A DNA stretch of 55,364 nucleotides from Elusimicrobiota bacterium (GTDB lineage Bacteria > CG03): positions 1 to 55,364 of the forward strand of contig JAYEJT010000074.1 in assembly GCA_034660675.1 (NCBI GenBank), read 5' to 3'. Below, piece by piece: positions 11,204 to 55,364 of the stretch. Numbering within the stretch: position 1 is the stretch's first letter; each line of letters begins with the position of its first letter. Below the pieces are notes generated by a model that had not been told where the DNA came from, made no database searches, and was given only the letters and a program-made list of their open reading frames with translations. Made by a program: the position numbers and the translations under genes.

Positions 11204-11273
11204 TGATGAGTCTGCCGTGGGGCGGATGAGGATGTTTTGGTAGAAGTTGTGAGGGTTCACCCGTCACGGCATC

Positions 11274-11346: not shown

Positions 11347-11385
11347 TATAAAACCGGATCAATCCGGTGAAGATAGTGAGGTAAA

Positions 11386-11550
11386 ATGGCTGTAGATTTA
11401 ATGACGATAGCTTTGCGCTGTTCCGAATGTAAAATGAAGAATTATTTTTTCAGGAAGAACAAGAAAAAGAAAGGCGCGAAAAAGCTTGAGTTGAAAAAAT
11501 ATTGCTCAACCTGCAAAAAGCACACTGTGCACAAGCAGGCAAAAGTTTAG
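11386..11550 (+). CDS. rpmG: 50S ribosomal protein L33
   Basis: 54 aa, below the ORF-track cutoff. MAVDLMTIALRCSECKMKNYFFRKNKKKKGAKKLELKKYCSTCKKHTVHKQAKV fits the L33 zinc-ribbon pattern (C-x2-C ... C-x2-C, ELKKYC). It has a GAGG SD, and its stop overlaps the tRNA-Trp 5' end. Confidence 0.8.
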   Translation: MAVDLMTIALRCSECKMKNYFFRKNKKKKGAKKLELKKYCSTCKKHTVHKQAKV

Positions 11551-11622
11551 GCCCGTAGCACAACTGGCTAGTGCGCCGGTCTCCAAAACCGGAGGTTGAA
11601 GGTTCAAGTCCTTCCGGGCCTG
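11549..11622 (+). tRNA. tRNA-Trp (CCA)
   Basis: Acceptor AGGCCCG/CGGGCCT, anticodon stem CCGGT/ACCGG with loop CTCCAAA, and T-arm GAAGG-TTCAAGT-CCTTC. Confidence 0.85.
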
Positions 11623-32965: not shown

Positions 32966-32974
32966 GGAGAGAGT

Positions 32975-40435: not shown

Positions 40436-40509
40436 CGGGGTGTGGCCCAGTTGGCTAGGGCGCTGCGTTCGGGACGCAGAGGTCGGCGGTTCAAGTCCGC
40501 CCACCCCGA
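40436..40509 (+). tRNA. tRNA-Pro (CGG)
   Basis: Acceptor CGGGGTG/CACCCCG, anticodon stem CTGCG/CGCAG with loop TTCGGGA, and T-arm GGCGG-TTCAAGT-CCGCC. Confidence 0.85.
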
Positions 40510-43229: not shown

Positions 43230-44144
43230 ATGTATGTTGTAGGAATAGACGAAAACGGACTCGGCCCGCGACTTGGAATGTTCTGTGTGACAGCTGCTGT
43301 TTTTGAATGCAGCTCTTATGACAAAAATCTTTTCTGGAAAAACGCTTCCGATGGTGCCGTTGATGACAGCAAAAAAGTGATGGCATCCGGCCGCACGGGG
43401 AAGGGAAGAAGGATAGCCGCCGCGTATCTGGCGCAACTCGGACATTTTCCGGAAACCGACGCGGATTTTATAGAATTTGTTAATCACAGAAGCGCCGGTT
43501 CCCTCAGTAATGATTGCCCCCCGTGTGTAAGAAGCATGTGCAGGGCGGGGCATTCTCCTTTTTGTGAAGACAGCGTTTCAGCCGTTTCGGATAACCTGTT
43601 TTCGCTGCTGAAGGACGCCGGAATAAGATTTGCCGGAGCGGAAAGCGTGTTTCTTTGTCCGAAAGAATTCAACAGGGGGATAGACAGATTTGGTTCCAAA
43701 ATGATGCTGGAGTTTTTTATCATGGAGAAGTTTTTCAGGAAATACGGCGCAGCGGATACCGGAAGAGGGGAGACTCTTTTTATATGCGGAAAACTCGGAG
43801 GTACCAAAAGATACGGCCGGTATTTTGATTATCTCAAAAAATATAGGGTCGCAAATTTGCAGGAGGGCACTGATTCCTTCTATGAATTTGACGGGTTAGG
43901 GAGGATAGAGTTTGTTAAAGACGGCGATGCCCTGCATTTGCCGGTGGCGCTGGCTTCTGTTTTCGGTAAGCTTGTCCGTGAAATATTCATGGACAGTCTC
44001 AACGGATATTTTGGAAATCTTGACAAGAGCCTCCCCGTGGTTTCGGGTTATAACGACCATTTGACCCGTGAGTTTATAGAAAAGACCGTGCCGGTGAGGA
44101 GGGAGCGGGGTATACCGGATATCTGCTTTCTGAGAAAGCGCTGA
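43230..44144 (+). CDS. Divergent RNase HII-like protein with an internal Cys-rich insertion
   Basis: The N-terminus VVGIDENGLGPRLG ... DDSKKV parallels RNase HII motifs GxDEAGRGP and DSK. The C-terminal VALASVFGKLVRE resembles AASIxAKxxRD. There is an insertion of about 130 aa containing CPPCVRSMCRAGHSPFC. Confidence 0.45.
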   Translation: MYVVGIDENGLGPRLGMFCVTAAVFECSSYDKNLFWKNASDGAVDDSKKVMASGRTGKGRRIAAAYLAQLGHFPETDADFIEFVNHRSAGSLSNDCPPCVRSMCRAGHSPFCEDSVSAVSDNLFSLLKDAGIRFAGAESVFLCPKEFNRGIDRFGSKMMLEFFIMEKFFRKYGAADTGRGETLFICGKLGGTKRYGRYFDYLKKYRVANLQEGTDSFYEFDGLGRIEFVKDGDALHLPVALASVFGKLVREIFMDSLNGYFGNLDKSLPVVSGYNDHLTREFIEKTVPVRRERGIPDICFLRKR

Positions 44145-44224
44145 AAAATATTAAGGACGTCCCCTTTTCCTCTTTACACTTCCAACTTTTCAAACTATAA
44201 TAGTACTGAAAGGCCTGAGAAGGG

Positions 44225-44335
44225 TGCCTCTGAATTGGCTGGTCCAATATCGGCAAATCCGTCGTAAGGCGGAGACGCAAAGCCACGGGTCCCGTGCGGG
44301 AGCGGGGGACAGCCGGGTTGCCTGAGGATGGTGCG
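44225..44335 (+). promoter_or_regulatory. c-di-GMP-I (GEMM) riboswitch aptamer
   Basis: GGCAAA-TCCGTC-GTAA-GGCGGA-G-ACGCAAAGCC at 44252-44285 reproduces the GEMM signature: GGCAAA, a 6-bp P1 hairpin with a GNRA loop, then the invariant ACGCAAAGC. A GC-rich second hairpin follows. The element lies in a 230-nt 5' leader. Confidence 0.6.
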
Positions 44336-44339
44336 TCAA

Positions 44340-44370
44340 GGTTCAGTCAGACGAGGCTGAACCTTTTTTT
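44340..44370 (+). terminator. Intrinsic terminator (expression platform of the riboswitch): ggttcag-tcagacgagg-ctgaacc followed by TTTTTTT
   Basis: 7-bp stem and U7 tract read directly, ending 9 nt before the ATG at 44379. Confidence 0.6.
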
Positions 44371-44378
44371 AATTTATT

Positions 44379-45971
44379 ATGAAAAATAGAAAAGAAATTA
44401 CCGGATTGATGCTTACGGCAGCCGCTATTTTTGCGTTCAATTTCTATCTTGAAGCAGAAAAAGGGACGGGCGGCATGCCCGGAGCTTTTTTATCTTACGG
44501 AGCCGGAGCGAGGTCGCTGGCCATGGGTAAGGCCTTTGTCGCCGAAGCTTCCGACGCTTCCGCCACTTACTGGAATCCCGCCGGGCTCGGCAATGTGGAG
44601 AGACAGGAGGCGATGATGCTCCACACAATGCTTTGGGCGGGCACCACTTATGATTTCTTGAGTTATGTGCGGCCGATGACACAGCTCGGGGCGGTGGGTT
44701 TGAGTATGGTCAAAATGACGACCGGCGGTTTTGAAGGGTACGATGTGTATAATGACAAAGCTACCAATTTTAGCGATAATCAGATGGCGGTGACGATGAG
44801 CATGGGAAAAAAATTCATGAAAACTTTGTCTCTCGGAGCTAATTTCAGATATATGACGCACACTCTGGCATGGCACACAAATTCAAGCTTTCTCATTGAT
44901 ATGGGAGGGCTCTACGCTCTGCCGAAAACGCCGAATCTCCGGCTGGGTTTTAATATACAGAATATTTTTGAGAACAAGCTCTCGCCGACGGAAGACAAAA
45001 TGCCGTTGACAATACGCATGGGCGCGGTGTATAAGCAGTTTAAGGACAAGCTCTCCGTAACAACAGATATTGTCAGCATAGCGGGCGTGCCGGATCTGGA
45101 AACTCATTTCGGCGTGGAGTACTGGCTTCTGGATTATTTCGCGTTTCGCGCCGGGATGGACGCTCAGGAAAAGAGTTTCGGGTTTGGCGTAAACTGGCAG
45201 AGTATAGGTTTTGATTACGCCATGTCCATGCATGACCTCGGGCTTTCTCACAGGATGTCTGCGAGTCTCCGTTTCGGTCCTTCCATAGCGGCGAAAAGAA
45301 GGCTTGACGCGCGTCAGGAGTATTTGAAAGCACATGCGGCTTTTGAAAAAGGTTATCTCTCCCGCGGTAAGGATTTTCTGGGCAGAGCCGTTTCGCTGGA
45401 TCCGCAGAACACGGATTACATATATGAATTTGACCGGATAGACGTCATTATCCCCATTTACAGGGAGGCTCCGAAGCCCAGCAAGGAACACGAGCTTTTG
45501 CGCCGTAGCGTGAAAAAATATCTTGACCGCAGAGTTGAACACAGCCTGCAGATACTCCGTTATCTCCTCACGCTGGACCCCGGCAATGCCAAAGTTATCG
45601 CGCTTATACAGGCGGTCAAAAACAAAGAGGGTTTAACCGATCTGGAGCCGGAACTCCCGTCAGGGATGAATCTCGTGGACAAAAACCTCTATGATTCGCT
45701 TAATTATTTTTATGACGGGAAATATGAGCAGGCGCTGAAACTGGCTCAGGATGTTCTGATACTGGAGCCTAATTCGGCGCTGGCATACAAGAGAATAGGG
45801 TCCGCTTTTTTCGCGATAGGAGAAAGGGATAGGGCCGTGGCAAACTGGAAAAAATCCATAGAGCTCGATCCCACAGATGAAAAGCTGCGGCAGTTTGTGT
45901 CAAAGATAGAAAGAGAAGCCTCGGAGGCCGCTCCGACGGAAGGGCTGGATTTTCTGGATAATATGGAGTGA
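44379..45971 (+). CDS. Outer-membrane beta-barrel (FadL/PorV-like N-terminal region) fused to a C-terminal TPR domain
   Basis: Signal peptide. The GAGARSLAMGKAFVAEASDASATYWNPAGLG motif is typical of OMPP1/FadL/PorV-type barrels. The C-terminal 230 aa hold TPR repeats (YEQALKLAQDVLILEPNSALAYKRIGSAFFAIGERDRAVANWKKSIELDP). Confidence 0.55.
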   Translation: MKNRKEITGLMLTAAAIFAFNFYLEAEKGTGGMPGAFLSYGAGARSLAMGKAFVAEASDASATYWNPAGLGNVERQEAMMLHTMLWAGTTYDFLSYVRPMTQLGAVGLSMVKMTTGGFEGYDVYNDKATNFSDNQMAVTMSMGKKFMKTLSLGANFRYMTHTLAWHTNSSFLIDMGGLYALPKTPNLRLGFNIQNIFENKLSPTEDKMPLTIRMGAVYKQFKDKLSVTTDIVSIAGVPDLETHFGVEYWLLDYFAFRAGMDAQEKSFGFGVNWQSIGFDYAMSMHDLGLSHRMSASLRFGPSIAAKRRLDARQEYLKAHAAFEKGYLSRGKDFLGRAVSLDPQNTDYIYEFDRIDVIIPIYREAPKPSKEHELLRRSVKKYLDRRVEHSLQILRYLLTLDPGNAKVIALIQAVKNKEGLTDLEPELPSGMNLVDKNLYDSLNYFYDGKYEQALKLAQDVLILEPNSALAYKRIGSAFFAIGERDRAVANWKKSIELDPTDEKLRQFVSKIEREASEAAPTEGLDFLDNME

Positions 45972-46027
45972 GGGGCCAGAATATCATCTGCCGCACTTTG
46001 GCAAAATGTCAAATCTTAAATGTCTTC

Positions 46028-46057
46028 TTGCTCATCACCGTCTCTAATGTGTATAAT
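46028..46057 (+). promoter_or_regulatory. sigma70-like promoter (-35 TTGCTC 46028-46033, 18-nt spacer, -10 TATAAT 46052-46057) 5 nt upstream of the ATG at 46063
   Basis: Read directly. It shows the same leaderless geometry as the pilM, 13860 and PilZ genes. Confidence 0.45.
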
Positions 46058-46062
46058 ACAAA

Positions 46063-48162
46063 ATGCGTAAACTTATAATATTCGCGGCGATTTTTATAGG
46101 GGTCTCGGCGGCCCGCGCCGCTGAAAATAGCCCCGTTTTACAGGATATAGATTACACCGCTGTCATCGAACAGAAGATGAAGCTTGAAAACAAGCTTGAA
46201 AAATACGTGAACGGGGTTCTTGACAAATGGTTGGGCCCGGATAAAGCCTTGGTGAGAATTGATATAACGCCCAATGCCAGCAAGTCGCGCGTGGAAACCG
46301 AATCATGGGCGCAGAAGCAGTCCGATTCCGACGGTGTAGAGGCGCAGAGTTCCGCGATGTCGGAATTTCTTCCGGGCATTCCCAGAAAACAGGACATTAT
46401 GCAGAAGGCAAAAAAGGAAGGCGGTCCCGGGGAGGCGTCCGGCCAGAAAAGAAGTATAGAAAGCGTTGTGAAAATACCGGAAGCTTTTATAAAAAAAATA
46501 GACGCCACTCTGATCGTTGATCAGGCGCTGAAAGATGAAGAGTTTACCGCTGTCAAAACAACCGTTGTTGATATGCTGGGGATAGACCTCAAGAGAGGAG
46601 ATAAGCTGAACGTGATGAAGGTAAAATTTTCACCGTTCAAAAAACTTTTGTCATATCTGACCAATCTCGATTTTTATCTTGCCCTTGTCGCCATTGCTCT
46701 TTGTCTTTTGTTTTTGCGTTTCCTTTTTTCCATAGGGCCGACCCTGAAAGATTTGAAGCAACTGAAAAGTGAAGTTGACACGACCGGCGATGTCGCCGGA
46801 GGCGGCGGCGGAGGCGGTGGCGCAGGCGGCGGAGGAAGCGCCGGCGTTTCCGGTGAGCAGGAAGGGGAAGCCGAGGAAAAAGAGGCCGGGGCAGTTGAAG
46901 ACGAAATACCAGAGGAAATAAAACAGAAGGAACTGAAGGAATTGGTGGCATCACTTCCTGTTCCCGGCGAGGAGGTCGGAAAAATGGCGTTTAAACCGTT
47001 TAAATTTGTTGAAGAGAGTGACCTGAAAAAAATAGCATATCTGCTGTCTAATGAAGAGCCTGAGGTGACGGCGACGGTGATACATTACCTTGACGATGCA
47101 AAAGCCGCAAAATTGCTCAAACTGTTTCCGGAACACAAGAAACCCGATGTGATAATGGCTATAACTAAAGTACAGTTTGTTGAGCAGAAAAAGATAGCGT
47201 GTCTGGAGAGGGTGCTGAAAAGGCGGATAGATCTCACTTCCGGAGGGGTTGACCGGCTGCTTGACATATTATCCCTGATGGATGACAGCACGAAAAAAGA
47301 GGTGATGGGTCATCTTTCGTCCGAGAATCCTGAAATTGCCGAAAAGGTGGAAGCCATGATGTTTTCTTTTGAGAAAATGATATCTTTTGACGATCACACG
47401 CTTCAAACGGTGCTTGCGGAAATAAACGCTCCCGAACTGGCCATAGCCATGAAAGGCACGGGCGATGATTTTAAGGCTAAAATTATGACTAATCTGTCAG
47501 AAGCGGCGGGTAAACTTGTGGAAGAGGAACAGGAAGCCGGCCGTGCGGCAACCGCCACTGACGCGCAGGTGACATTACAGCGCCGGGCAATAATAACAAA
47601 GCTTAAAGAGTTAGATGACGAGGGGAAAATAAATCTTGGCGGAACAAAAGAAATATCAGTGTTTGAAGATGAGTTGACCGCTGTTTCGTCCAAAAACATA
47701 ATGGAAGAAGTAGAAGAGGAAATGGAAAAAGAAAAAAAGAGAGAAGCAGAAAGAGAGGAGAGGAGAAAAAAAATAGGTATGACGGAAGATGTCGTGCCGG
47801 TCCTGGACAATGAGAAATCATTTGAGCATTATTCGCGGGGTGAGGAGTTTTTCCAGGAGGGAAATTACGAAGACGCTATCCTTGAATTTGAGGCTTCAAT
47901 ACAGTATAACCCCGAAATATGGCAGACATATCAGTTTATGGGTTCGGCACTGTTTGCTTTAGGCCGTGAGCAGGCGGCGGTGACGGCGTATGAAAAATGT
48001 CTGGAACTCAACCCCGGCAATGAGGAACTCACTAAGTGGATGAAAGAGTACCATCACAAAAATAAACAGTCCGCGGAGGCCGCCGCGGAAGAGAATCAGC
48101 AGAAAGAAACCTCCGAGACCGGTGAGCCGGACTCAGTTGCGTCTTCTCAGGAGACTGAATAA
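46063..48162 (+). CDS. FliF-FliG fusion protein: signal peptide, periplasmic FliF/YscJ-like ring-building domain, TM helix, Gly/acidic linker, FliG middle and C-terminal (torque) domains, and a C-terminal TPR tail
   Basis: GIDLKRGDKLNVMKVKFSPF followed by TM LALVAIALCLLFLRF parallels the FliF region just before TM2 (GFSDKRGDTLNVVNSPFS). PEIAEKVEAMMFSFEKMISFDDHTLQTVLAEINAPELAIAMKGTGDDFKAKIMTNLSEAAG aligns with the FliG_C consensus (MFVFEDI..LDD..IQ.VLREVD...LALALKGASDELKEKI..NMS.RAA). Confidence 0.6.
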   Translation: MRKLIIFAAIFIGVSAARAAENSPVLQDIDYTAVIEQKMKLENKLEKYVNGVLDKWLGPDKALVRIDITPNASKSRVETESWAQKQSDSDGVEAQSSAMSEFLPGIPRKQDIMQKAKKEGGPGEASGQKRSIESVVKIPEAFIKKIDATLIVDQALKDEEFTAVKTTVVDMLGIDLKRGDKLNVMKVKFSPFKKLLSYLTNLDFYLALVAIALCLLFLRFLFSIGPTLKDLKQLKSEVDTTGDVAGGGGGGGGAGGGGSAGVSGEQEGEAEEKEAGAVEDEIPEEIKQKELKELVASLPVPGEEVGKMAFKPFKFVEESDLKKIAYLLSNEEPEVTATVIHYLDDAKAAKLLKLFPEHKKPDVIMAITKVQFVEQKKIACLERVLKRRIDLTSGGVDRLLDILSLMDDSTKKEVMGHLSSENPEIAEKVEAMMFSFEKMISFDDHTLQTVLAEINAPELAIAMKGTGDDFKAKIMTNLSEAAGKLVEEEQEAGRAATATDAQVTLQRRAIITKLKELDDEGKINLGGTKEISVFEDELTAVSSKNIMEEVEEEMEKEKKREAEREERRKKIGMTEDVVPVLDNEKSFEHYSRGEEFFQEGNYEDAILEFEASIQYNPEIWQTYQFMGSALFALGREQAAVTAYEKCLELNPGNEELTKWMKEYHHKNKQSAEAAAEENQQKETSETGEPDSVASSQETE

Positions 48163-51100
48163 TGGCGGATAAAAAAAACAAACCGAATCCCTTTTCGGGG
48201 GGGATGAAACCTCCTTCTTTTGCCGCGCCCGGGCCGCCCGGGGGTCCGTCTAAAATTCCTCCAAAGGGTCATGTTCCTCCCGGAGCCTTTTCGTCTTCCC
48301 CGGCGCAGCCGCAGGAAGATCAGAGACGGCCTTTACCCCGGAAGGGGGCGTTTGTTCCGGGTGGTTCAGGTTACACCGATCAGCTGAAATTAAAAATAGA
48401 ACAGGCGAAAAAAACTCTTGAAGACAGCCGGTTCAGAAAAAAAGAAAAATTTGAGCAGAGAGAACTTTACTGGATGAGCCTCCTCAAAGAAAAAGAAAAA
48501 GAAGCGGATACTATCAAGCGGGAGATGAAGGAAGCTCTTGAAAATATGGAAGACAGCCAGACTGAAAAAGAAACGGCTTTGCGCGGTGCTTTGCAGCAGT
48601 TTGAGAGCCGGCTCATGGGGGTTTCAAGAGAACTTGATGACGAAAAGAAAAAATCTTACAGGTCAATGCAGAAGGCGAAAGAGGAAAGTGAGGCTTCTCT
48701 TAAAATTGAAATGGCGCTGAAAGAAATAGTGTCATCCAAGGATTACGAAGACAAGCTGGAAAATCTTCAGAACGCCCGTGAGAATCTGCTCAAAGACATG
48801 ATAAGGCAGAAAGACAATTTTAACAGAGAGAAATCAGCGTTAGAAGATCAGATAGGGACGCTTAACGAACAAATATCTAATCAGCGGCAAATTATTTCAA
48901 GGAAAGAATCCGCGGAGCAGATTTTTGAGGCGCAGAAAGAAAAAGATATAGAATCCGCCCGTGCGGAAGCCAAAGCGCGGCTGGAAGATCTCCTGAGGCA
49001 GGTCAGGGGCCGGGAAGAAAGTGTGCGTCTCAAGGAAAATGAGTTCAGGGTACAGGAATTCGCGAACAAACAGCAGCTGGATAATATGAGCGGTGATCTG
49101 CGAAAAAAGGAATCTGAACTTTCGGCCGCCAGAGATACTGCCTCGCGCCTTGCCAGAGAACTCACCGCCGCCAGAAATGCCCTGGAAGAAGGAAATTCCA
49201 AGTTTGTCAAAGAGATAGATTGGCTCAAAAAACATTTTGATGAAGAACGCGCTGTTTGGGGCGGCCGTTTTGATAAGGAGGGGCGCTTGAGAAAGGAAGC
49301 CGTTTCCGCCCGCACGGACATCGCAAAAGAAAGAGACTCCATTTTTCGCGAACTTGCCAGGTCGCGGGTGAAAGAGGAAGATTTGTCTTCACGGCTTGCC
49401 GGAAAAGAAAAAGACATATCTGATTTAAAAAATTCTTTTGAAAAAGAGAAAAATGAAATCAAAGGCCTCTATGAATCAGGATTAGAACGCATAACATCCG
49501 CAAGAGACGCGCTCACCGGCGAGTTGAGGGCATCAGAAATTTCTATAAAGCGGCTCGAGGGTGAAAAGAAAGAAATTGAAGAAGAATTGGTGTCGGTAAG
49601 GAAAGCGTTTGCGGAAAAAGAGACCCGGGATAAAGTTCTTAGGGCTAAAATAGATGAATTGTCTTCTGAAAAACAAGGCCTTGAAAATGATGCGGAAGAA
49701 CGGCGGTTGTCGTTTGAAAGCGTGAAAAAACAGCTTTTTTTGCAAATAGATCAGTTGAAATCAGAAAAAGCGGAGATGGAGAAAGAAAACTTTGAAAACA
49801 AAAATATGCTGGACGGATTCAGCGGGGAGATTTCAAAGAAGGAGCGTGAAATCGAATTCGCGCGTAAATCTCTTCACGCAAAAATTTCGGAACATGCGCT
49901 GGAAAAAGAAAACCTTGAACGAAAAATAAAAATTCTGGAAGGGGAGAAATCAGAAGTGGAAAACGCCTGTTCGGAGTATTCCCGCGCAGGCAAAGACCTT
50001 GAGGAAAAGTTGAGGATCAAGACAGCGGATGAGGATAGCGCTTCCTCGGAGTTAAACGAATCAAAGCGTATCATCGGTGAACTTAACGGGCGTCTTTCGG
50101 AATCAAAAAAAGAGCTTTCGGGTTTTATGCGGAGAGAGGATGACCTGAAAGAAAAAATAGCAGATTACGAGAGAGTCATAGACGAACTCAATAAAAATAT
50201 CACAGTGATGCAGGAGGAAAGCGAAAAATCCGAAGCGCAAAAGGAACATGAATTAGAAAAAGCCATTTCTGAAATTGAGGAACTTAACGGAAAACTCAAT
50301 GGTTTTCTGAAAGAAAAAAACAAGCTTTCCGGGAAGGTTGATGCGATATCGCGTGAACTTTTTGATATGACAAAACAGCGGGACACGCTCTTTAAAGAAA
50401 AAAACATTGTTTCGGGAGAGCTTTCATCCGCAAAAACGCAAATTGAACAGCTCCTCGTCCGTGCCGCGGAGAACGCCGCGGCCATAGATGAGACGACGGA
50501 AGAAATCTCGCTGTTAAAGGACAAACTTAAAAATCTTTCCGCTTCACACAGTGTTGAAACGGTGGATCTTAAAAACAAGATTCTGGAACAGCACAAAAAA
50601 ATGGAGAAACTTTTTTCCAGAATCAACGAATACAATCTTGAAATAGAGGCTCTTAAGGCCGCGCCGCGTGAAACTGTTGAAGAATACAAGCGGAAATTAA
50701 TAGAGAGGCAGGACGCCGAATCTAAAATGAGAGAGGAGCTGGAAGAGCTCCGCGCTGAAAAAGAGCGTTCGGCTGAGAAAGACGGGAGAATAAAAGATTA
50801 CGACGGGAAAATAGAGCTGCTTGAGAAAAAACTTTCGGAGACGGAATCCGAAATGGGGAAAATGAGAGAGCAGAGCGCGGCGGCCTCCGGGATGGATGCC
50901 CAGATCGTGAGGAAAGACGCACAGCTTAAAGAAGCCTCAGGAGAGATCAGGGATCTCAGGGACAGGATAGAATCGCTTGAAGAAGAAAAGTCGGGTATCA
51001 GAAAAAAAATTGATACCGAGATAATTGACATAAAAGACGAATATAATCAACGCCGCGCGGAAATTGAGGAGAGAACAAAAGCTTTTGAAAAAACGAAAGA

Positions 51101-52055
51101 GGAATTAAATGAACTGCGGTCGAAATTTCAAAATTTGTCAGATGCGAATATTGCTTTGAAGGAAGAGGCGGAAGAAGCCGCTCTTGATAGCGAAAAATTC
51201 AAAAAATTTGCCGCGGACAAGGAGAGGGAAATAGGGGGCTTAAAAGAGCGTCTTGATCTGTCCAGGGAAGAAATCACGGCTTCGTACGAGGATAAAATCA
51301 AAAAACTTAGTGATGTGGCCGCCGAAAACGGAGACAAAGCGAAAAGTTTTGAAAATCAGCTGAAAGAAGCTGAGAAAGAGATAGCGCATTTGAAAGAATC
51401 ATCCTCTTCCGAATCACAACAGGCGGATGAGTTCAAAGAAAAACTTCGGGAGCTTGAAGCAATAATTGAAAAGCAAAAGAAAGATATTTCCGCGAAGATG
51501 GAGTACTTAAAAGACAAAGAGCTGGAATTCCACAAAATACTGAAAAAAAAGGATGAGGACATATCTGTTCTTAAAGCGCAGCTGGAAATAGGGCTGGAGG
51601 CCCTGGGCGGGAAGAGCGGCGCCGGCGCATCCGCCGTTAGCCCCGGTAGATCTTCAGATGCTTCTCCGGACAAAAAGTTGGACGAACTGCAAAAAATAAA
51701 TGAGGAGCTGAAAAGAAAATCGGCGGAACGTGAAGCCATGCTCAGGGAAGAAATAGAGAGAAAAGAGACCGAGGCGGCTGAATACAGAAACCAGATCAGC
51801 GCCGCCGAATCAAAACAGCCCGCGGAAAAAGCCGGCGCGCCGTCCGAGCTCAAAGATGAGATCAAAACCAGAACCATGGAAGCGGTCAGGCTCAAGTCGG
51901 AGATGACAAGGGCCAGAAATTATTACGAAAAACTCGAGGGTATTATAAAAAAGCAGGATGAGAAAATATCCCGGCTGCAGAATAAAGAAGACTCCGGCGG
52001 CGTTATTAAAAGGCATGACATTGTTTCCGATGATGAAGGGGATATAAAATTTTGA
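48162..52055 (+). CDS. Giant coiled-coil protein (1297 aa) with a Pro-rich N-terminal segment
   Basis: A single ORF with an AGGAG SD. More than 1100 aa are continuous E/K/R/L-rich heptad-like sequence with no NTPase motifs. The Ser-rich antisense ORFs are artefacts of the repetitive coding. Confidence 0.6.
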   Translation: MADKKNKPNPFSGGMKPPSFAAPGPPGGPSKIPPKGHVPPGAFSSSPAQPQEDQRRPLPRKGAFVPGGSGYTDQLKLKIEQAKKTLEDSRFRKKEKFEQRELYWMSLLKEKEKEADTIKREMKEALENMEDSQTEKETALRGALQQFESRLMGVSRELDDEKKKSYRSMQKAKEESEASLKIEMALKEIVSSKDYEDKLENLQNARENLLKDMIRQKDNFNREKSALEDQIGTLNEQISNQRQIISRKESAEQIFEAQKEKDIESARAEAKARLEDLLRQVRGREESVRLKENEFRVQEFANKQQLDNMSGDLRKKESELSAARDTASRLARELTAARNALEEGNSKFVKEIDWLKKHFDEERAVWGGRFDKEGRLRKEAVSARTDIAKERDSIFRELARSRVKEEDLSSRLAGKEKDISDLKNSFEKEKNEIKGLYESGLERITSARDALTGELRASEISIKRLEGEKKEIEEELVSVRKAFAEKETRDKVLRAKIDELSSEKQGLENDAEERRLSFESVKKQLFLQIDQLKSEKAEMEKENFENKNMLDGFSGEISKKEREIEFARKSLHAKISEHALEKENLERKIKILEGEKSEVENACSEYSRAGKDLEEKLRIKTADEDSASSELNESKRIIGELNGRLSESKKELSGFMRREDDLKEKIADYERVIDELNKNITVMQEESEKSEAQKEHELEKAISEIEELNGKLNGFLKEKNKLSGKVDAISRELFDMTKQRDTLFKEKNIVSGELSSAKTQIEQLLVRAAENAAAIDETTEEISLLKDKLKNLSASHSVETVDLKNKILEQHKKMEKLFSRINEYNLEIEALKAAPRETVEEYKRKLIERQDAESKMREELEELRAEKERSAEKDGRIKDYDGKIELLEKKLSETESEMGKMREQSAAASGMDAQIVRKDAQLKEASGEIRDLRDRIESLEEEKSGIRKKIDTEIIDIKDEYNQRRAEIEERTKAFEKTKEELNELRSKFQNLSDANIALKEEAEEAALDSEKFKKFAADKEREIGGLKERLDLSREEITASYEDKIKKLSDVAAENGDKAKSFENQLKEAEKEIAHLKESSSSESQQADEFKEKLRELEAIIEKQKKDISAKMEYLKDKELEFHKILKKKDEDISVLKAQLEIGLEALGGKSGAGASAVSPGRSSDASPDKKLDELQKINEELKRKSAEREAMLREEIERKETEAAEYRNQISAAESKQPAEKAGAPSELKDEIKTRTMEAVRLKSEMTRARNYYEKLEGIIKKQDEKISRLQNKEDSGGVIKRHDIVSDDEGDIKF

Positions 52056-52075
52056 AAAGAGGCGGTTAATAAAAA

Positions 52076-52858
52076 ATGGATTTTGCGACAATTGTAGGTT
52101 TTGCAGCGGGTATAGGGCTTATAGTCCTTGCTATTATCAGCCGTGTGGGGGTTGCGGGTTTTCTGACAAGTTTTGTGGATTACCAGTCTGTCGCTATCAC
52201 TCTTGGCGGCACCTTCGCCGCGACAATGGTTAATTATTCTTTCCATGAGCTTGTGAGTGTCTTTGCCATAGCCAAAAAGGTTTTTATGCAGAAAGATGAT
52301 GATGCCGTGGGAATTATAGATACCGTTGTAAGACTTACGAAAAAATCCAGGACACAGGGTATGCTCTCGATTGAGCAGGATATAAAGGAGTTACCCACCC
52401 CCTTTCTCCGTCACGGTTTTTCGCTCGTTCTGGCCAACATTGATGTTGAAACGATAAGAACGGAGCTTGAAACCGAAATAATTTTTTTGCGCGAACGGCA
52501 CAAGCTGGGGCAGGAGATATTTTTGACAATGGGGACATTTGCTCCCGCTTTCGGTATGTTGGGAACGATCATGGGTCTCATCATGATGCTTGCGAATCTG
52601 GAAGACCAGGCGGCTATTGCCGGCGGTATGGCCGTGGCTCTTCTTACAACTCTTTACGGCGCGCTTCTGGCGAATATCATATTTCTGCCTGTTTCCGGCA
52701 AACTCAAAAGAAAAAGCGAAGATGAAGTGCTGATCAAGGAAATAATAATAGAGGGAATAATATCAATGAAAAACGGTGACATTCCGTCAATAATAGAATC
52801 TAAACTCAAAGCTTATCTACCGCCGAAAAAAAGAGAAAGAAAAATCATAGAAAAATAA
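52076..52858 (+). CDS. motA: MotA/PomA-family stator (proton-channel) protein
   Basis: 260 aa with 2 TM helices, a cytoplasmic loop of about 100 aa, and 2 further TM helices carrying the conserved TFAPAFGMLGTIMGLI ... GGMAVALLTTLYGALLAN region. There is a GAGG SD. Confidence 0.8.
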   Translation: MDFATIVGFAAGIGLIVLAIISRVGVAGFLTSFVDYQSVAITLGGTFAATMVNYSFHELVSVFAIAKKVFMQKDDDAVGIIDTVVRLTKKSRTQGMLSIEQDIKELPTPFLRHGFSLVLANIDVETIRTELETEIIFLRERHKLGQEIFLTMGTFAPAFGMLGTIMGLIMMLANLEDQAAIAGGMAVALLTTLYGALLANIIFLPVSGKLKRKSEDEVLIKEIIIEGIISMKNGDIPSIIESKLKAYLPPKKRERKIIEK

Positions 52859-52859
52859 T

Positions 52860-53882
52860 ATGGTGAAAAAAAGGACGTCGGAGACAGAACAGGTTGGCCC
52901 GACAGCGCCGGGCTGGATGGTCACATACGGTGACCTCATGACACAGCTTCTTATCTTTTTTGTCATGATGTTTGCCCTGGCTTCCGCTATGAATGAGATG
53001 CAGCTGATCAATCTTCAAACAAAGATGCAGCAGTATATAGACAGAGAAGATCTGGGTAACGATGTTTCACTGGCTGTGGACGAGAGGGGGCTTATTGTTT
53101 CTTTTCACGGCGACAAGATGTATGAAAAAGGAGACGCCGAAATAAAACCCGCGGCGCTGACGGCTTTGGCCAATCTTGCGGCTTTCGTGCGGCCGCAGCC
53201 CAATGAGGTGCGGATAGAGGCCCACGCGGATAAGACAGAATCCCCGGGCAGATATTCATCGTTATGGAATCTTTCCTCTACGCGGGCCTCACTGATAGCG
53301 AAACAGCTTATTGGAAAAATATATTTTCCGCCTTACCGGCTTTCATCAGCCGGTTATGCCGAGCAGAAACCTTACATTGAAAAAGACGGCGATACATACA
53401 AAATGCTTGAAGGCCGGAGCGCAGATCTGCTTAAAACTTCTTCTTCCGCGTTTTTCTATGAAGTCAGCCGTATGATAAAAAGAAAGATAGATGCCGGATT
53501 GCTGGAAAAACGGAAAAAATTAGATAAAAAATACAGGAATGATCCCCGGGGCAAGGTTCTTATCCGTCTCATGTCGTCTAATTACAGAGCGGGGCTGGAA
53601 AAAAAATATAACAGGATATTTCAGCGTCTGAAATTAAAAACCGAATTCAAAAACAGAACGGGGAAATGGGCGGAGGCGGTCACGGCGCTTAAATTTGAAG
53701 ATTTTGAAATTGAAATCCTCGCGGCGAAGGAGGATTATATCAAAGCGCAGTTCTATGACAGACTGCAGAAGGAAATTGTGACGCTGGCTAACCTTTCCCC
53801 CTCGCAGCAGAACAGAAACCGCCGTGTGGACCTTATTGTGGCGCGTATTTCGCCGCAATCGGCGAAGGAACGCCTGCTGTAG
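52860..53882 (+). CDS. motB: MotB-family stator protein (TM helix with conserved Asp, OmpA-like peptidoglycan-binding domain, long Lys-rich C-terminal extension)
   Basis: WMVTYGDLMTQLLIFFVMMFAL matches the MotB plug/TM (WMVTYADLMT). The OmpA-like core is EAHADKT...NLSSTRASLIAKQL. About 140 aa of extra C-terminal sequence follow. Confidence 0.8.
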   Translation: MVKKRTSETEQVGPTAPGWMVTYGDLMTQLLIFFVMMFALASAMNEMQLINLQTKMQQYIDREDLGNDVSLAVDERGLIVSFHGDKMYEKGDAEIKPAALTALANLAAFVRPQPNEVRIEAHADKTESPGRYSSLWNLSSTRASLIAKQLIGKIYFPPYRLSSAGYAEQKPYIEKDGDTYKMLEGRSADLLKTSSSAFFYEVSRMIKRKIDAGLLEKRKKLDKKYRNDPRGKVLIRLMSSNYRAGLEKKYNRIFQRLKLKTEFKNRTGKWAEAVTALKFEDFEIEILAAKEDYIKAQFYDRLQKEIVTLANLSPSQQNRNRRVDLIVARISPQSAKERLL

Positions 53883-53939
53883 GGCAGGGCAAAACAATGA
53901 ATTTCCACTCCGGGAACTATGCCGTGTAAGGGTTTGGGT

Positions 53940-53962
53940 CCCGCGATTTCGCGGAATTTTGT
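53940..53962 (+). terminator. Possible terminator hairpin after motB (cccgcgatttcgcgg followed by aatttt)
   Basis: Short GC hairpin followed by a weak T-run. Confidence 0.25.
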
Positions 53963-55364
53963 GAGCGTATTATTTTTTCTGATACCTGTAGCCTTTTTCC
54001 CTTTTTTGAATGATTCTTTTGCTTTGCCGAAAGCTTTTCTTTTCTGGATGTTTGTTCCGCTTTTTTTTCTGACGGACGATTTTACCGCGGATAGAGAGGA
54101 AATACCCGTTTATTTTCTGGCGGGAATTTATTTTCTGCTGTCTCTTTTTTCAATATATCCCGCGCTCAGTTTCAAGGGGCTTTACAGATATTATTTCAGC
54201 GGTTTTTTCTCGCTTTTCGCGGGTCTTTCGTTATTCAGGATCTTGCGGAATTTTCCGGAAAAGGACGTTAAAAGACACATGTCTTTTCTGCTGCTCGCGG
54301 TTCTTCTGACATGCTCGGCGGTCTTTTTCGGACAGGGGAGAATTTCTTCCACATTCGGGAATCCGAATTTTTACGGCGGCGTGCTGGCGGCGCTGCTCCC
54401 GTATGCTCTGTATTGTTCGCTCTCAAAGAGGGTTTACGTGGTTCACCTGATATTTTTCGCGACAGCTCTTTTGATGACGTATTCCCGCGCTTCATGGGCG
54501 GGCAGTGCCGCGGGAATATTGTTCTTTGCTGCTGCCGGTAAGAAGGATGCCGCCTCCGGCCGGGCACGTGTCATTGCGGTACGGAATCTGCTTGCCGCGG
54601 CGGCCCTCATTTTTGCGGGGGCTTTGATCGTGGCGCCCGGGTTCGCGGCCGGAGTTTTTAAAAGAGCCGTTTCCGCGTTTGATCTGTCAGAGGCCGATAT
54701 CGTTTCAAGGTTTGAGGGATACACTGCGAGCATGGCGGTTTTCAGGGAAAAACCGTTGACCGGTTACGGCCCGGAAAGCTTTTCAATTCTTTTTCGTGCC
54801 CATGCTCCGGCCTCGTTTGTCAGGCAAACAGGGGGATTGGCTCATGCGGGTTACAGCCACTCTTATCCTCTGCAGATTCTCACCGAGACCGGCCTGGCGG
54901 GTTTGGGCGCCTGGGTTTTTCTAATATTCGTTCTTGTCAGGAAGGCGTTTGTTTCCCGGGAGCTCTTTAAAAAAGCCGCGGGGGCGGCTGTTACGGCGTT
55001 CTGTGTCACTAATTTATTCGCTTTTCCGTCTATCACCGAAATGCTTGTTTTCTGGTTCTCGGCCGCCGTGATATACGGTTTTCCGGCCGGTGGGCCGTCA
55101 CCGCGTGTAATGTTGCCGGCGTCTTTGACATTCCGTAAAAAGCGGTTTTTAACAGCGGTCAGATTTGCGATGGTTTCAGGTGCGCTGCTGATTTTATCAG
55201 CACCGCTGGTTTCGGAAGTATTTTTTACCGCGGGCGCGAAAACTTCATCCAGCGAGGAAGCGTATTCCCGCCTCCGGCGGGCGGCTTCTTTTTTTCCGGC
55301 TGATTATCATCTGATGAACGCCGGGAAAAGATGTTTACTGTTTTATGATGAGACCCTCTCTCCT
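53961..55364 (+). CDS. O-antigen ligase-like (Wzy_C) membrane protein, 3' partial (runs off the window); start uncertain (GTG 53961 or ATG 54048)
   Basis: The frame stays open to the window end and is absent from the ORF track because no stop is reached. Motifs GNPNFYGG, YSRASWAG and HAGYSHSYPLQILTETGLAG are typical of Wzy_C. It is a paralog of 5642-6970. Confidence 0.55.
   Translation, partial: MSVLFFLIPVAFFPFLNDSFALPKAFLFWMFVPLFFLTDDFTADREEIPVYFLAGIYFLLSLFSIYPALSFKGLYRYYFSGFFSLFAGLSLFRILRNFPEKDVKRHMSFLLLAVLLTCSAVFFGQGRISSTFGNPNFYGGVLAALLPYALYCSLSKRVYVVHLIFFATALLMTYSRASWAGSAAGILFFAAAGKKDAASGRARVIAVRNLLAAAALIFAGALIVAPGFAAGVFKRAVSAFDLSEADIVSRFEGYTASMAVFREKPLTGYGPESFSILFRAHAPASFVRQTGGLAHAGYSHSYPLQILTETGLAGLGAWVFLIFVLVRKAFVSRELFKKAAGAAVTAFCVTNLFAFPSITEMLVFWFSAAVIYGFPAGGPSPRVMLPASLTFRKKRFLTAVRFAMVSGALLILSAPLVSEVFFTAGAKTSSSEEAYSRLRRAASFFPADYHLMNAGKRCLLFYDETLSP

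What the first reader, a model, noticed from the sequence alone, without database searches (positions are those of the whole stretch)
46063..48162. Natural FliF-FliG fusion with cleavable signal peptide and TPR C-terminus
Canonical FliF has two TM helices and about 420 periplasmic residues, and it binds FliG_N non-covalently. Here the periplasmic part is about 200 aa, apparently RBM2/RBM3-like, ending in the conserved ...KRGD.LNV....FSPF-TM junction. TM1 is replaced by a signal peptide. FliG_N is missing and replaced by a covalent Gly-rich/acidic linker. About 170 extra residues with TPR repeats follow FliG_C, where FliM normally docks. The TPR sequence is very similar to the TPR tail of the upstream OMP gene (44379-45971), which suggests a shared partner or a periplasm-to-cytoplasm scaffold.
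Basis: partly seen in the sequence, partly recalled or inferred. Interest (0 to 1): 0.8.

Follow-up and report, generated by a model that had tools for sequence, protein, structure and literature searches.

The report
Flagellar rotor–stator parts in non-flagellar operon
This gene really is a natural fusion of a flagellar ring protein (FliF) piece to the torque-receiving rotor protein (FliG), and it sits with MotA/MotB stator genes in a c-di-GMP-riboswitch-controlled operon conserved across Elusimicrobiota, a phylum mostly without flagella, so it probably builds an undescribed ion-driven machine from flagellar motor parts.

Summary
ORF 46063..48162 (699 aa) reads: signal-peptide-like N-terminus, FliF RBM3-type ring domain, one TM helix, Gly/acidic linker, FliG middle and C domains, charged helix, 2.5 TPRs. 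It is not an assembly artefact: at least 16 independent full-length homologues, and about 90 clusters at 50% identity, share the plan.

The gene is the second in a conserved unit: promoter, c-di-GMP-I riboswitch with terminator, PorV-like outer-membrane barrel with a TPR tail, the fusion, a 1297-aa Pro-rich/coiled-coil protein, flagellar-type MotA, then MotB. Distant relatives also carry FlbD before motA. Gene order holds at 22-35% identity, and the riboswitch was found in seven lineages. Every named member is from Elusimicrobiota. A 2022 preprint noted unexplained motAB/flbD/fliG genes in non-flagellated members of this phylum, without describing the architecture.

FliG_N, FliF RBM1/2 and the FliM-binding motif are missing. 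The Gly-Gly hinge, MFxF motif, acidic torque-helix pair, MotA contact charges and MotB channel Asp are kept.

Best reading: a stand-alone, non-flagellar MotAB-driven rotor ring, switched off by high c-di-GMP. Its output is unknown; surface or envelope movement is the leading guess. The claims of "very similar TPR tails" and an RBM2 domain are not supported.

The parts
44173..44201 (+). Promoter-like site TTTACA-17-TATAAT ahead of the riboswitch
   Evidence: Best sigma-70-type match in 44100-54100, 11 of 12 positions. This is a consensus match only.
44243..44326 (+). c-di-GMP-I-clan (GEMM-I) riboswitch aptamer
   Evidence: Rfam RF03167, 60.1 bits (gathering 59), E 1e-11, full model length. Homologous aptamers lie in the same position in L001/L002, L006, L007, L008, L086 and L087. 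Of 21 consensus pairs, 12 show compensatory changes among 5 sequences.
44338..44372 (+). Intrinsic terminator (expression platform): 11-bp stem AAGGTTCAGTC/GGCTGAACCTT plus T-run, ending 7 nt before the ATG
   Evidence: The same hairpin is conserved in L001. Hairpin plus U-run is also present in L006 and L008. The P1 5' strand can pair with the terminator 5' arm and loop instead, at -20 to -22 kcal/mol.
44379..45971 (+). Outer-membrane PorV/PorQ-family beta-barrel (aa ~30-300) with a ~230-aa C-terminal TPR tail
   Evidence: NCBIfam NF033709, 136 bits (cutoff 90); Pfam UPF0164, PorV and TPR. It precedes the fusion gene in every related locus at 32-67% identity.
46063..48162 (+). FliF(RBM3)-TM-FliG(M,C)-TPR fusion protein, 699 aa (the finding)
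46063..46122 (+). Signal-peptide-like N-terminus (aa 1-20, MRK + LIIFAAIFIGV + SAARA|AE)
   Evidence: Sequence. Family-wide short hydrophobic core, median 13 aa, with K/R before it in 76 of 83 members. Cleavage was not tested.
46147..46632 (+). Periplasmic RBM3-type ring-building domain (aa 29-190) with a low-confidence collar-like insert (aa ~85-130). Conserved motifs: LPG[IV]P and RGDxLxVxxVxF.
46678..46734 (+). Single transmembrane helix (hydrophobic core aa 206-224)
   Evidence: Kyte-Doolittle 2.67. Falls within model helix 202-237.
46774..46983 (+). Gly-rich/acidic disordered linker (aa 238-307), standing in place of FliF_C plus FliG_N
   Evidence: pLDDT below 50. In-frame imperfect GGN run. 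Its length varies in frame among homologues.
46993..47235 (+). FliG middle (ARM_M) domain, aa 311-391. EHPQ is reduced to E-x-P.
47242..47637 (+). Gly-Gly hinge (G394 G395), ARM_C, MFxF motif (MFSF 433-436) and FliG_C with torque helix (NLSEAAGKLVEEEQE, aa 477-491)
   Evidence: Family-wide: G394 in 68/68, F436 in 64/68, E488 in 53/68, E489 in 50/68. Position 481 (E. coli R281) is G in 58 and A in 5 of 68.
47698..47775 (+). Highly charged single helix (aa 546-571) between FliG_C and the TPR domain
47809..48117 (+). Cytoplasmic TPR domain (about 2.5 repeats plus a capping helix, aa 583-685)
48162..52055 (+). 1297-aa cytoplasmic protein: Lys-rich then Pro-rich N-terminus followed by ~1200 aa of coiled coil (37% E+K+R), no TM. 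Its start overlaps the fusion's stop codon by 1 nt.
   Evidence: A counterpart of 635-1439 aa with the same Pro-rich N-terminus is present in all related operons.
52076..52858 (+). Flagellar-type MotA/PomA stator A subunit (260 aa)
   Evidence: PF01618. Full-length match to C. sporogenes MotA at E 1e-53 and PomA at E 1e-48. PomA R88, E96, P151 and P199 equivalents are conserved.
52860..53882 (+). MotB stator B subunit (340 aa): plug, channel Asp (TYGDLMT), OmpA-like peptidoglycan-binding domain with an insertion
   Evidence: PF13677 and PF00691. The Asp is conserved in all 7 clusters examined.
53994..55364 (+). Wzy_C (O-antigen-ligase-like) membrane protein, cut by the contig end. Linked in some lineages only.
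   Evidence: tblastn at 40% identity to the L001 homologue, E 5e-79. Pfam Wzy_C. Follows MotB in L001, L003 and L008, but not in L006, L007, L086 or L087.

Best explanation
The ORF encodes the rotor subunit of a non-flagellar, ion-driven machine that appears specific to Elusimicrobiota and is built from flagellar motor parts.

Shown:
- The protein combines, in one chain, the FliF ring-building domain RBM3, a TM anchor, and the FliG middle and C domains that carry the torque helix.
- It is encoded in a conserved, tightly packed operon with a flagellar-type MotA/MotB stator (plus FlbD in distant lineages), a PorV-like outer-membrane barrel with a periplasmic TPR tail, and a giant Pro-rich/coiled-coil cytoplasmic protein.
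- A c-di-GMP-class riboswitch followed by a terminator precedes the operon.

Inferred:
1. After signal-peptide cleavage, the RBM3 domains oligomerise in the periplasm into an S-ring-like ring of roughly 30 subunits. This holds a matching ring of FliG_MC domains under the membrane. The covalent linker makes the FliF_C/FliG_N joint unnecessary.
2. MotA5B2 units are anchored to peptidoglycan by MotB. They conduct ions through the conserved Asp and push on the acidic torque helix of FliG_C, turning the ring.
3. There is no FliM/FliN switch, export gate, rod, hook or filament. Output is instead taken through the cytoplasmic TPR domain and the giant coiled-coil protein, and/or through the periplasmic collar towards the TPR tail of the outer-membrane barrel. 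My preferred guess for the output is surface-associated (gliding-like) movement or movement of an envelope component.
4. The riboswitch terminates transcription when c-di-GMP is high, so the machine is made in the low-c-di-GMP ('motile') state.
For: Architecture.

Real and conserved.

Operon conserved from 77% down to 22-35% identity of the fusion.

The stator is the flagellar type, not ExbB/TolQ:
- Full-length MotA/PomA matches at E 1e-53 and 1e-48, with PomA R88/E96 kept in this clade.
- MotB has a plug, the channel Asp and an OmpA domain.
- FlbD sits directly before motA in L086 and L087.

Rotor features needed for torque are kept family-wide: Gly-Gly hinge (68/68), MFxF, the acidic pair equivalent to D288/D289 (53 and 50 of 68), and K/R at the K264 position (52/68).

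Features needed only in a flagellum are lost:
- No FliG_N and no PF01514 RBM1/2.
- EHPQ is degenerate.
- TIGR00207 scores 119 bits against a cutoff of 226.7.
- No other flagellar gene in the 55-kb window or in 10-kb flanks of relatives.

Taxonomy and independent support:
- Every named member is from Elusimicrobia/Elusimicrobiota.
- Preprint 10.1101/2022.07.08.499144 reports that most free-living Elusimicrobiota lack flagellar structural genes yet carry motAB, flbD and fliG homologues of unclear role.

Riboswitch: found in 7 lineages with strong covariation, followed by a terminator and with a competing anti-terminator pairing.

Precedent: engineered FliF-FliG fusions assemble rings (PMC6079021, PMC10941966, PMC11481574).
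Against: - Nothing here shows ring formation, rotation or any phenotype.
- The Arg equivalent to E. coli FliG R281, a major MotA contact, is Gly/Ala in 63 of 68 members.
- The MotA R88/E96 equivalents are not conserved in every lineage: H/E in L006, S(K)/Q in L007 and L008.
- The short, TPR-less form in L085 has the OMP partner but no adjacent MotAB, so some family members may work without a dedicated stator.
- I could not inventory whole genomes. The source MAG could encode flagellar genes on other contigs, and the preprint says a few Elusimicrobiota do have complete sets.
- A rigid link from a spinning ring to an outer-membrane barrel is mechanically awkward.
- The OFF direction of the riboswitch rests on thermodynamic prediction only. 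Two of the seven copies score best with the 'GGC' variant model, and I could not establish that variant's ligand.
Confidence: 0.55

Rival explanations
1. It is a lineage-specific component of a true flagellum. For example, it could be a second rotor or an accessory ring in flagellated Elusimicrobiota, with the rest of the flagellar genes on other contigs.
For: All recognisable catalytic parts are flagellar: FliF RBM3, FliG_MC, MotA, MotB and FlbD. A few Elusimicrobiota genomes are reported to have full flagellar sets. The whole genome of this MAG was not available to me.
Against: - It lacks FliG_N. It lacks RBM1/RBM2, which house the export gate. The FliM-binding motif is degenerate.
- There are no flagellar genes in the 55-kb window or in the flanks of 9 related loci.
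- The operon partners (PorV-like barrel, giant coiled coil) are not flagellar.
- The preprint finds these genes precisely in genomes without flagellar structural genes.
Confidence: 0.1
2. It is a non-rotating, stator-energised envelope system, analogous to Tol-Pal, ExbBD-TonB or Agl-Glt. MotAB would use ion flow to drive conformational work on an anchored FliG-bearing scaffold that bridges the cytoplasm, inner membrane and outer membrane. The function would be envelope integrity, secretion or adhesin handling, and the fusion need not form a freely turning ring.
For: - The module pairs a MotAB-type motor with an elongated helical/Pro-rich partner, an outer-membrane protein and TPR domains, as Tol-Pal and Agl-Glt do (own knowledge of those systems; parts).
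- Genes with T9SS-type sorting tails flank the short form in L085, and the OMP is PorV-like.
- A Wzy_C gene is linked in several lineages.
- The R281 contact is lost.
Against: - RBM3 is a dedicated ring-building module.
- The stator is specifically the flagellar torque-generating type with a plug and FlbD, not the TolQR/ExbBD type.
- The FliG hinge, MFxF motif and acidic torque helix are under strong conservation.
Confidence: 0.22
3. It is a Zorya-like anti-phage defence module: a MotAB-like motor plus a long coiled coil used as a signal transmitter.
For: MotA and MotB give weak PADLOC hits to ZorA/ZorB (E 1e-3 and 8e-10), and the giant protein gives weak hits to SMC-like defence proteins. A long coiled coil is reminiscent of the ZorA tail (own knowledge).
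Against: - The ZorA/B hits are only the generic MotA/MotB similarity; the flagellar MotA/PomA matches are far stronger.
- There are no ZorC/D-like or nuclease effector genes.
- The coiled coil is a separate protein, not a MotA tail.
- The unit is a vertically conserved, phylum-wide operon with stable neighbours and a c-di-GMP riboswitch, unlike a mobile defence island.
Confidence: 0.03
4. The fusion is an artefact: a frameshift or mis-join in the GGC-rich linker that merges separate fliF-like and fliG-like genes.
For: The linker is a low-complexity GGN repeat of a kind that can be error-prone.
Against: The same single ORF is found in at least 16 independent contigs from different samples and sources. 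About 90 further clusters, down to ~22% identity, have the TM helix and FliG_MC in one chain, many of them without any poly-Gly run.
Confidence: 0.01

Closest known systems
Flagellar MS-ring/C-ring joint: FliF plus FliG with the MotA5B2 stator
   Same: - RBM3 fold with a collar-like insert, ending in the RGDxLxVxxVxF-TM junction.
- FliG ARM_M, Gly-Gly hinge, ARM_C, MFxF motif, and a C-terminal six-helix domain with an acidic torque helix.
- MotA with the R/E rotor-contact charges.
- MotB with plug, channel Asp and OmpA-like domain.
- FlbD before motA in distant lineages.

   Different: - One polypeptide instead of two.
- Signal peptide instead of TM1.
- No RBM1/RBM2, no FliF C-terminal helices, no FliG_N.
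- EHPQR degenerate; R281 replaced by Gly/Ala.
- An added charged helix and TPR domain.
- No FliM/FliN, export apparatus, rod, hook or filament genes nearby.
- Partners are a PorV-like barrel and a giant coiled-coil protein.
- Riboswitch control.
Engineered FliF-FliG fusions (Salmonella full-frame fusion, PMC6079021; Vibrio FliFG, PMC10941966, PMC11481574; PDB 8z4d/8z4g)
   Same: FliF is covalently joined to FliG. The engineered proteins assemble into MS-ring-like rings, which shows that a 1:1 covalent rotor subunit is structurally viable.
   Different: The engineered fusions retain full-length FliF (both TMs, RBM1-3) and full-length FliG including FliG_N. The natural protein is a pared-down version (RBM3 + TM + FliG_MC) with a flexible linker and a TPR tail.
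Other MotAB-family 5:2 motors with elongated partners: ExbBD-TonB, TolQR-TolA-Pal-CpoB, GldLM of the T9SS, AglRQS-Glt of Myxococcus, ZorAB
   Same: An ion-driven stator is coupled to an extended protein and to outer-membrane and TPR components in order to do work across the envelope. This comparison rests on my own knowledge; the parts are.
   Different: Those systems have no FliG or FliF module, and their A/B subunits belong to the non-flagellar 'generic ion transporter' groups without a plug (PMC12505986). Here the stator is the flagellar type, and the elongated protein is cytoplasmic and without a TM segment.
c-di-GMP-I (GEMM-I) riboswitches upstream of motility and adhesion genes
   Same: The aptamer passes Rfam gathering scores, shows covariation and has a terminator expression platform.
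   Different: As far as I could find, association with this operon has not been described. Some copies score best with the 'GGC' variant model.

Membership tests
FliF (flagellar MS-ring protein) | RBM3 ring-building domain with beta-collar (Pfam PF08345) | tested here: met
FliF (flagellar MS-ring protein) | RBM1 and RBM2 (Pfam PF01514 YscJ_FliF), which house the export gate | tested here: not met
   No PF01514 hit at E <= 0.1. Only ~30 residues lie between the signal peptide and the RBM3 helix.
FliF (flagellar MS-ring protein) | Two transmembrane helices flanking the periplasmic region | tested here: not met
   There is one strong TM segment (aa 206-224). The N-terminal hydrophobic core is short (14 aa here, family median 13) with K/R before it, which is signal-peptide-like.
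FliF (flagellar MS-ring protein) | C-terminal cytoplasmic helices that co-fold with FliG_N | tested here: not met
   The TM helix is followed by a disordered Gly/acidic linker that runs directly into FliG_M.
FliF (flagellar MS-ring protein) | Assembly into a ~33-34-mer ring | not testable with these tools
   Only monomer prediction was available.
FliG (flagellar rotor/switch protein, TIGR00207) | FliG_M and FliG_C domains with Gly-Gly hinge and MFxF motif | tested here: met
FliG (flagellar rotor/switch protein, TIGR00207) | FliG_N domain that binds FliF | tested here: not met
   The only FliG_N signal (E 0.018, zero significant stretches) overlaps FliG_M. The region before FliG_M is disordered.
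FliG (flagellar rotor/switch protein, TIGR00207) | EHPQR motif for FliM binding | tested here: not met
   The window protein has N-E-E-P-E-V. Family-wide only E331 (60/68) and P333 (56/68) persist.
FliG (flagellar rotor/switch protein, TIGR00207) | Charged torque-helix residues (E. coli K264, R281, D288, D289, R297) | tested here: inconclusive
   The K264 equivalent is K/R in 52 of 68. The D288/D289 equivalents are E in 53 and 50 of 68. The R281 equivalent is G in 58 and A in 5 of 68.
FliG (flagellar rotor/switch protein, TIGR00207) | Score above the NCBIfam equivalog cutoff | tested here: not met
   119 bits against a cutoff of 226.7.
FliG (flagellar rotor/switch protein, TIGR00207) | Genomic and functional association with fliM/fliN and the flagellar export and axial genes | tested here: not met
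   None in the 55-kb window or in the flanks of related loci. Whole genomes were not tested; literature support comes.
Flagellar-type stator MotA/MotB (PomA/PomB) | MotA with a four-TM core, a large cytoplasmic torque-generating domain and the conserved R/E contact charges and channel prolines | tested here: met
   Full-length matches at E 1e-53 (MotA 6ysf) and 1e-48 (PomA 8bri). PomA R88, E96, P151 and P199 equivalents are present.
Flagellar-type stator MotA/MotB (PomA/PomB) | MotB with plug helix, channel Asp and OmpA-like peptidoglycan-binding domain | tested here: met
   PF13677 at 48.4 bits, PF00691 at 41.2 bits. The Asp in TYGDLMT is conserved in 7 of 7 clusters.
c-di-GMP-I riboswitch (Rfam clan CL00126) | Covariance-model score above gathering and conserved secondary structure | tested here: met
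   60.1 bits (gathering 59) in the window. Related loci score 44.7-69.5 bits against gathering scores of 35 or 59. 12 of 21 pairs are compensatory.
c-di-GMP-I riboswitch (Rfam clan CL00126) | Binds c-di-GMP and controls expression | not testable with these tools
   The OFF logic is inferred from terminator and anti-terminator folding only.
PorV/PorQ family outer-membrane protein (NF033709) | Family HMM above cutoff | tested here: met
   136.1 bits against a cutoff of 90. The specific PorV, PorQ and PorV2 equivalogs are all far below their cutoffs.
PorV/PorQ family outer-membrane protein (NF033709) | Works with a type IX secretion system (PorK/L/M/N, Sov) | not tested
   No T9SS core genes were seen in the window. 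Genes with Por_Secre_tail flank the short-form locus L085.
Zorya anti-phage system | ZorA with a long C-terminal tail, plus ZorC/ZorD or other effectors | tested here: not met
   Only weak generic ZorA/ZorB hits. MotA is 260 aa with no tail, and there are no effector genes.

The most novel reading that the evidence does not exclude
Elusimicrobiota possess a stand-alone rotary motor. A membrane ring of single-chain FliF(RBM3)-FliG(MC) subunits is spun by flagellar-type MotAB stators, with no secretion apparatus, axial structure or FliM/FliN switch. The ring is coupled instead to a giant cytoplasmic coiled-coil protein and an outer-membrane barrel. This would be a previously unrecognised motility or envelope machine. 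It would also be the minimal natural rotor-stator unit. It is either a radical exaptation of a lost flagellum or a relative of the pre-flagellar torque module.
Probability: 0.4. Interest if true: 0.92.

Novelty: new variant of a known kind. Interest (0 to 1): 0.78.

Why it matters
1. It would be a natural experiment on what the flagellar rotor-stator core needs. It suggests that RBM3, one TM helix and FliG_MC may be enough to present a torque helix to MotAB. It also suggests that the FliF_C/FliG_N joint, RBM1/2 and the FliM/FliN switch can be dispensed with outside a flagellum.

2. It offers a concrete, testable candidate for the unexplained motAB/flbD/fliG genes of non-flagellated free-living Elusimicrobiota. 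This includes the magnetotactic ones, whose means of movement is an open question (10.1101/2022.07.08.499144).

3. Depending on phylogeny, it bears on how the flagellar motor was assembled in evolution, or taken apart: whether torque generation can exist independently of type III secretion.

4. The seven-lineage riboswitch linkage ties the machine to c-di-GMP lifestyle switching. It also gives an easy experimental handle.

Tried and rejected
- **Assembly or frameshift artefact:** rejected on cross-lineage conservation.
- **Shared partner for the two TPR tails:** rejected. Identity is 30% over 83 aa, no closer than to designed consensus TPRs, and the tails are predicted to lie in different compartments.
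- **RBM2 in the periplasmic part:** no PF01514 hit.
- **Sequence-only search of the N-terminal 230 aa against PDB:** only an insignificant FliF hit (E 0.19) over the RGDxLNV...F junction. The assignment needed Pfam plus structure comparison.
- **Defence system:** PADLOC gave only generic MotA/B and SMC-like noise.
- **Profile search of the named protein collection with the diverse alignment:** it re-found only the close clade.
- **GTDB genome scan:** it was dominated by TPR patterns. Only L005-L012 were true relatives, and the first attempt with A2 failed for lack of a conserved stretch.
- **AFDB50 fold search:** unavailable.
- **E. minutum genome paper (PMC2681670):** not held. The groundwater Elusimicrobia paper does not discuss motility.
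- **Literature searches for a natural FliF-FliG fusion or orphan FliG machine:** found only engineered fusions and the 2022 preprint.
- **Ligand of the 'c-di-GMP-I-GGC' variant:** nothing informative found.
- **Riboswitch in the P0019 lineage (L004) and the short-form locus (L085):** not detected.

Full report
**1. Observation**

The ORF at 46063..48162 (+) is present and encodes 699 aa.

- Pfam finds YscJ_FliF_C (aa 53-189; 30.8 bits, gathering score 23.8), FliG_M (323-390), FliG_C (417-525) and TPR repeats (590-655).
- NCBIfam's FliG equivalog matches aa 311-528 at E 3e-34, but at 119 bits it is far below its 226.7-bit cutoff.
- A profile of the family aligns end to end with the T. maritima FliG middle-plus-C crystal constructs at E ~1e-40.

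I made two AlphaFold2 models. The one built on a 68-sequence alignment has mean pLDDT 80.7. Its only low-confidence regions are an insert at aa 85-130, the linker at 238-307 and the extreme termini.

- The secondary structure of aa 29-187 is alpha-beta-beta, insert, beta-beta-alpha-beta. That is the RBM3 layout interrupted by a collar-like insert. It is followed by the conserved RGDxLxVxxVxF junction and a single TM helix with its core at aa 206-224.
- The N-terminus (MRK-LIIFAAIFIGV-SAARA|AE) has the form of a Sec signal peptide. Across 83 relatives its uncharged core has a median of 13 residues, against 19 for the TM helix, and 76 of 83 have K/R in front. No dedicated predictor was available, so cleavage is inferred.

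**2. Not an artefact**

The Gly-rich linker is an in-frame, imperfect GGN run with mixed codons.

The same single-chain architecture occurs in 16 aligned full-length homologues at 47-77% identity, from independent contigs and data sources. An exhaustive HMM search of 1.84 billion cluster representatives found about 90 further 50%-identity clusters among the top 150 with the same plan. That plan is a signal-like N-terminus, ~180 residues, a TM helix near residue 200-230, then FliG_MC, either with a TPR tail (620-750 aa) or without one (470-550 aa).

In a 68-member alignment, all members have FliG_M and FliG_C. 36 reach E <= 1e-3 for YscJ_FliF_C, and 37 have TPRs.

**3.

The gene is the second of a tightly packed set.

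| Coordinates | Gene product |
|---|---|
| 44379..45971 | PorV/PorQ-family outer-membrane barrel (NF033709, 136 bits, cutoff 90) with a ~230-aa TPR tail |
| 46063..48162 | The fusion |
| 48162..52055 | 1297-aa protein; its start overlaps the fusion's stop codon by one base |
| 52076..52858 | MotA |
| 52860..53882 | MotB |

- **MotA** is the flagellar type. It gives full-length matches to C. sporogenes MotA (E 1e-53) and Vibrio PomA (E 1e-48). The rotor-contact charges (PomA R88, E96) and channel prolines are present.
- **MotB** has the plug, the channel Asp (TYGDLMT) and an OmpA-like domain.
- **The giant protein** is 37% Glu+Lys+Arg and has no TM segment. In every relative it begins with a Lys-rich then Pro-rich N-terminus.
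- **A Wzy_C membrane protein** follows MotB and runs off the contig end. It is linked in some lineages only.

**4. Conservation of the unit**

The order OMP, fusion, giant protein, MotA, MotB holds in the following loci:

- L001/L002 (fusion 57% identical) and L003/L004 (47%).
- L006, L007, L008 and L011 (29-35%).
- L086 and L087 (26-27% identity by tblastn; these are the P0053 and P0079 lineages).

In L086 and L087 a 74-76-aa FlbD gene sits directly before motA. To my knowledge this is the flbD-motA-motB arrangement of spirochaete and Firmicute flagellar operons.

A short, TPR-less family member (L085) keeps the OMP partner but has no adjacent MotAB. It is flanked by genes with T9SS-type sorting tails.

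Every family member that carries an organism name is from Elusimicrobia/Elusimicrobiota. A few GTDB bins are labelled 'uncultured Clostridia' or 'uncultured bacterium'.

**5. Regulation**

Rfam places a c-di-GMP-I-clan aptamer at 44243..44326, about 50 nt before the OMP start codon. A near-consensus promoter lies at 44173..44201, and a strong terminator hairpin plus U-run lies at 44338..44372.

Aptamers of the same clan occupy the same position in L001/L002, L006, L007, L008, L086 and L087. That makes seven lineages in total. None was found in L004 or L085. Five aptamers share 21 predicted pairs, 12 of them with compensatory double changes.

In the window and in L001, the 5' strand of the outer P1 helix can pair with the terminator's 5' arm and loop instead, at -20 to -22 kcal/mol. 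This alternative dominates the nascent transcript.

The predicted logic is that ligand-stabilised P1 lets the terminator form, so the operon is OFF at high c-di-GMP. This direction is an inference. Some copies score best with the 'GGC' variant model, and I could not establish that variant's ligand.

**6. What is kept and what is lost relative to a flagellar rotor**

Kept family-wide:
- The Gly-Gly hinge (G394 in 68/68).
- MFxF (F436 in 64/68).
- The acidic pair equivalent to E. coli D288/D289 (E in 53 and 50 of 68).
- A K/R at the K264 position (52/68).

Lost:
- FliG_N. The only signal overlaps FliG_M.
- FliF RBM1/RBM2. There is no PF01514 hit.
- FliF TM1 and the FliF C-terminal helices.
- The FliM-binding EHPQ motif, of which only E-x-P remains.
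- The R281-equivalent Arg, which is Gly/Ala in 63 of 68.

The MotA contact charges are conserved in this clade but vary in L006-L008. No other flagellar gene occurs in the 55-kb window. The window instead carries type IV pilus genes and housekeeping genes. None occurs in the 10-kb flanks of the related loci either.

**7. Literature**

I found no description of a natural FliF-FliG fusion or of this operon.

Engineered FliF-FliG fusions of Salmonella and Vibrio assemble MS-ring-like rings (PMC6079021, PMC10941966, PMC11481574; PDB 8z4d/8z4g).

A 2022 preprint on magnetotactic Elusimicrobiota (10.1101/2022.07.08.499144) makes several relevant statements:
- Cultured members are non-motile.
- Only a few genomes of the phylum have a complete flagellar gene set.

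That trio is exactly the flagellar-type content of the operon described here. The preprint worked at the KEGG-annotation level. It does not describe the FliF part, the fusion, the OMP or giant-protein partners, or the riboswitch.

**8. Mechanism**

Shown: a single chain carries a ring-building periplasmic domain, a membrane anchor and the torque-receiving FliG domains. It is co-encoded and co-conserved with a flagellar-type stator.

Inferred:
- RBM3 oligomerises into an S-ring-like ring, which arrays FliG_MC domains under the membrane.
- MotA5B2 units are anchored to peptidoglycan through MotB and turn this ring by acting on the acidic torque helix.
- Without a switch complex the motor is probably unidirectional, or regulated at the level of synthesis.
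- Output is taken by the cytoplasmic TPR domain and the giant coiled-coil protein, and/or by the periplasmic collar towards the TPR tail of the outer-membrane barrel.

My best guess for the output is surface-associated movement or movement of an envelope component. Repression by c-di-GMP fits a 'motile-state' function. The nature of the output is the weakest step.

**9. Rivals**

- An accessory part of a true flagellum (0.10).
- A non-rotating, stator-energised trans-envelope scaffold in the manner of Tol-Pal or Agl-Glt (0.22).
- A Zorya-like defence system (0.03).
- An artefact (0.01).

Their evidence is listed in the Rival explanations section.

**10. Verdict**

The protein should not be filed as FliF or as FliG, because defining features of both were tested and not met. 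It very probably works like the FliF-FliG rotor joint. I rate it a new variant of a known kind, with high interest. The orphan genes had been noticed before, but the architecture, the operon and its regulation had not been described in anything I could find. If it is a stand-alone rotary motor, that would be a significant addition to the known bacterial machines.

Noticed in passing
window 44243-44372: A c-di-GMP-I-clan riboswitch plus terminator sits directly upstream of the operon. The same arrangement is conserved in seven lineages. The predicted logic is an OFF switch.
   Followed up: yes
window 53994-55364: A Wzy_C (O-antigen-ligase-like) membrane protein gene follows MotB and is cut by the contig end, so the ORF lister omitted it. 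Homologues with added TPRs follow MotB in L001, L003 and L008, but not in L006, L007, L086 or L087.
   Followed up: partly
L086 11551-11775; L087 13914-14144: A small FlbD (PF06289) gene lies immediately before motA in the most distant operons. It is absent from the window, where only 20 nt separate the giant gene from motA.
   Followed up: partly
window 48162-52055 and counterparts in L001, L003, L006, L007, L008, L011, L086, L087: The giant protein always starts with a Lys-rich then strongly Pro-rich N-terminus. In the close clade it ends in an acidic ...GDxDxxI[KR]F tail. Either end could be a ligand for the fusion's TPR domain.
   Followed up: partly
L085 1-2432 and 7374-8273: The short, TPR-less family member with its OMP partner is flanked by genes with T9SS-type C-terminal sorting domains (Por_Secre_tail; also FlgD_ig and fn3). 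It has no adjacent MotAB. A NTP_transf_2/HEPN pair sits directly downstream.
   Followed up: no
L086 3696-4070: A stand-alone response-regulator receiver gene lies just upstream of the riboswitch and operon in the RIFCSP groundwater Elusimicrobia genome.
   Followed up: no
L007 6146-7219: A second, shorter PorV-like barrel gene (357 aa, no TPR tail) lies directly upstream of the riboswitch and the OMP-TPR gene.
   Followed up: no
window 136-5025 and 31817-34980: The window carries type IV pilus genes: PilM, PilN-like, PilO and a secretin with an AMIN domain. Separately there are two T2SSE-family (PilB/PilT-like) ATPases, followed by a cyclic-nucleotide-binding protein.
   Followed up: no
window 43230-44144: The 304-aa ORF just upstream of the riboswitch matches only the C-terminal third of the RNase HII Pfam model (E 4e-7). 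It may be a divergent or degenerate RNase HII-like gene.
   Followed up: no
window 10896-11622; 40800-41960: There is a cluster of four tRNA genes. Elsewhere there is a Fic/DOC-family gene preceded by a tRNA at 40436-40509.
   Followed up: no
L001 20180-20307 (same in L002): An FMN riboswitch (115 bits) lies ahead of riboflavin biosynthesis genes, downstream of the operon.
   Followed up: no
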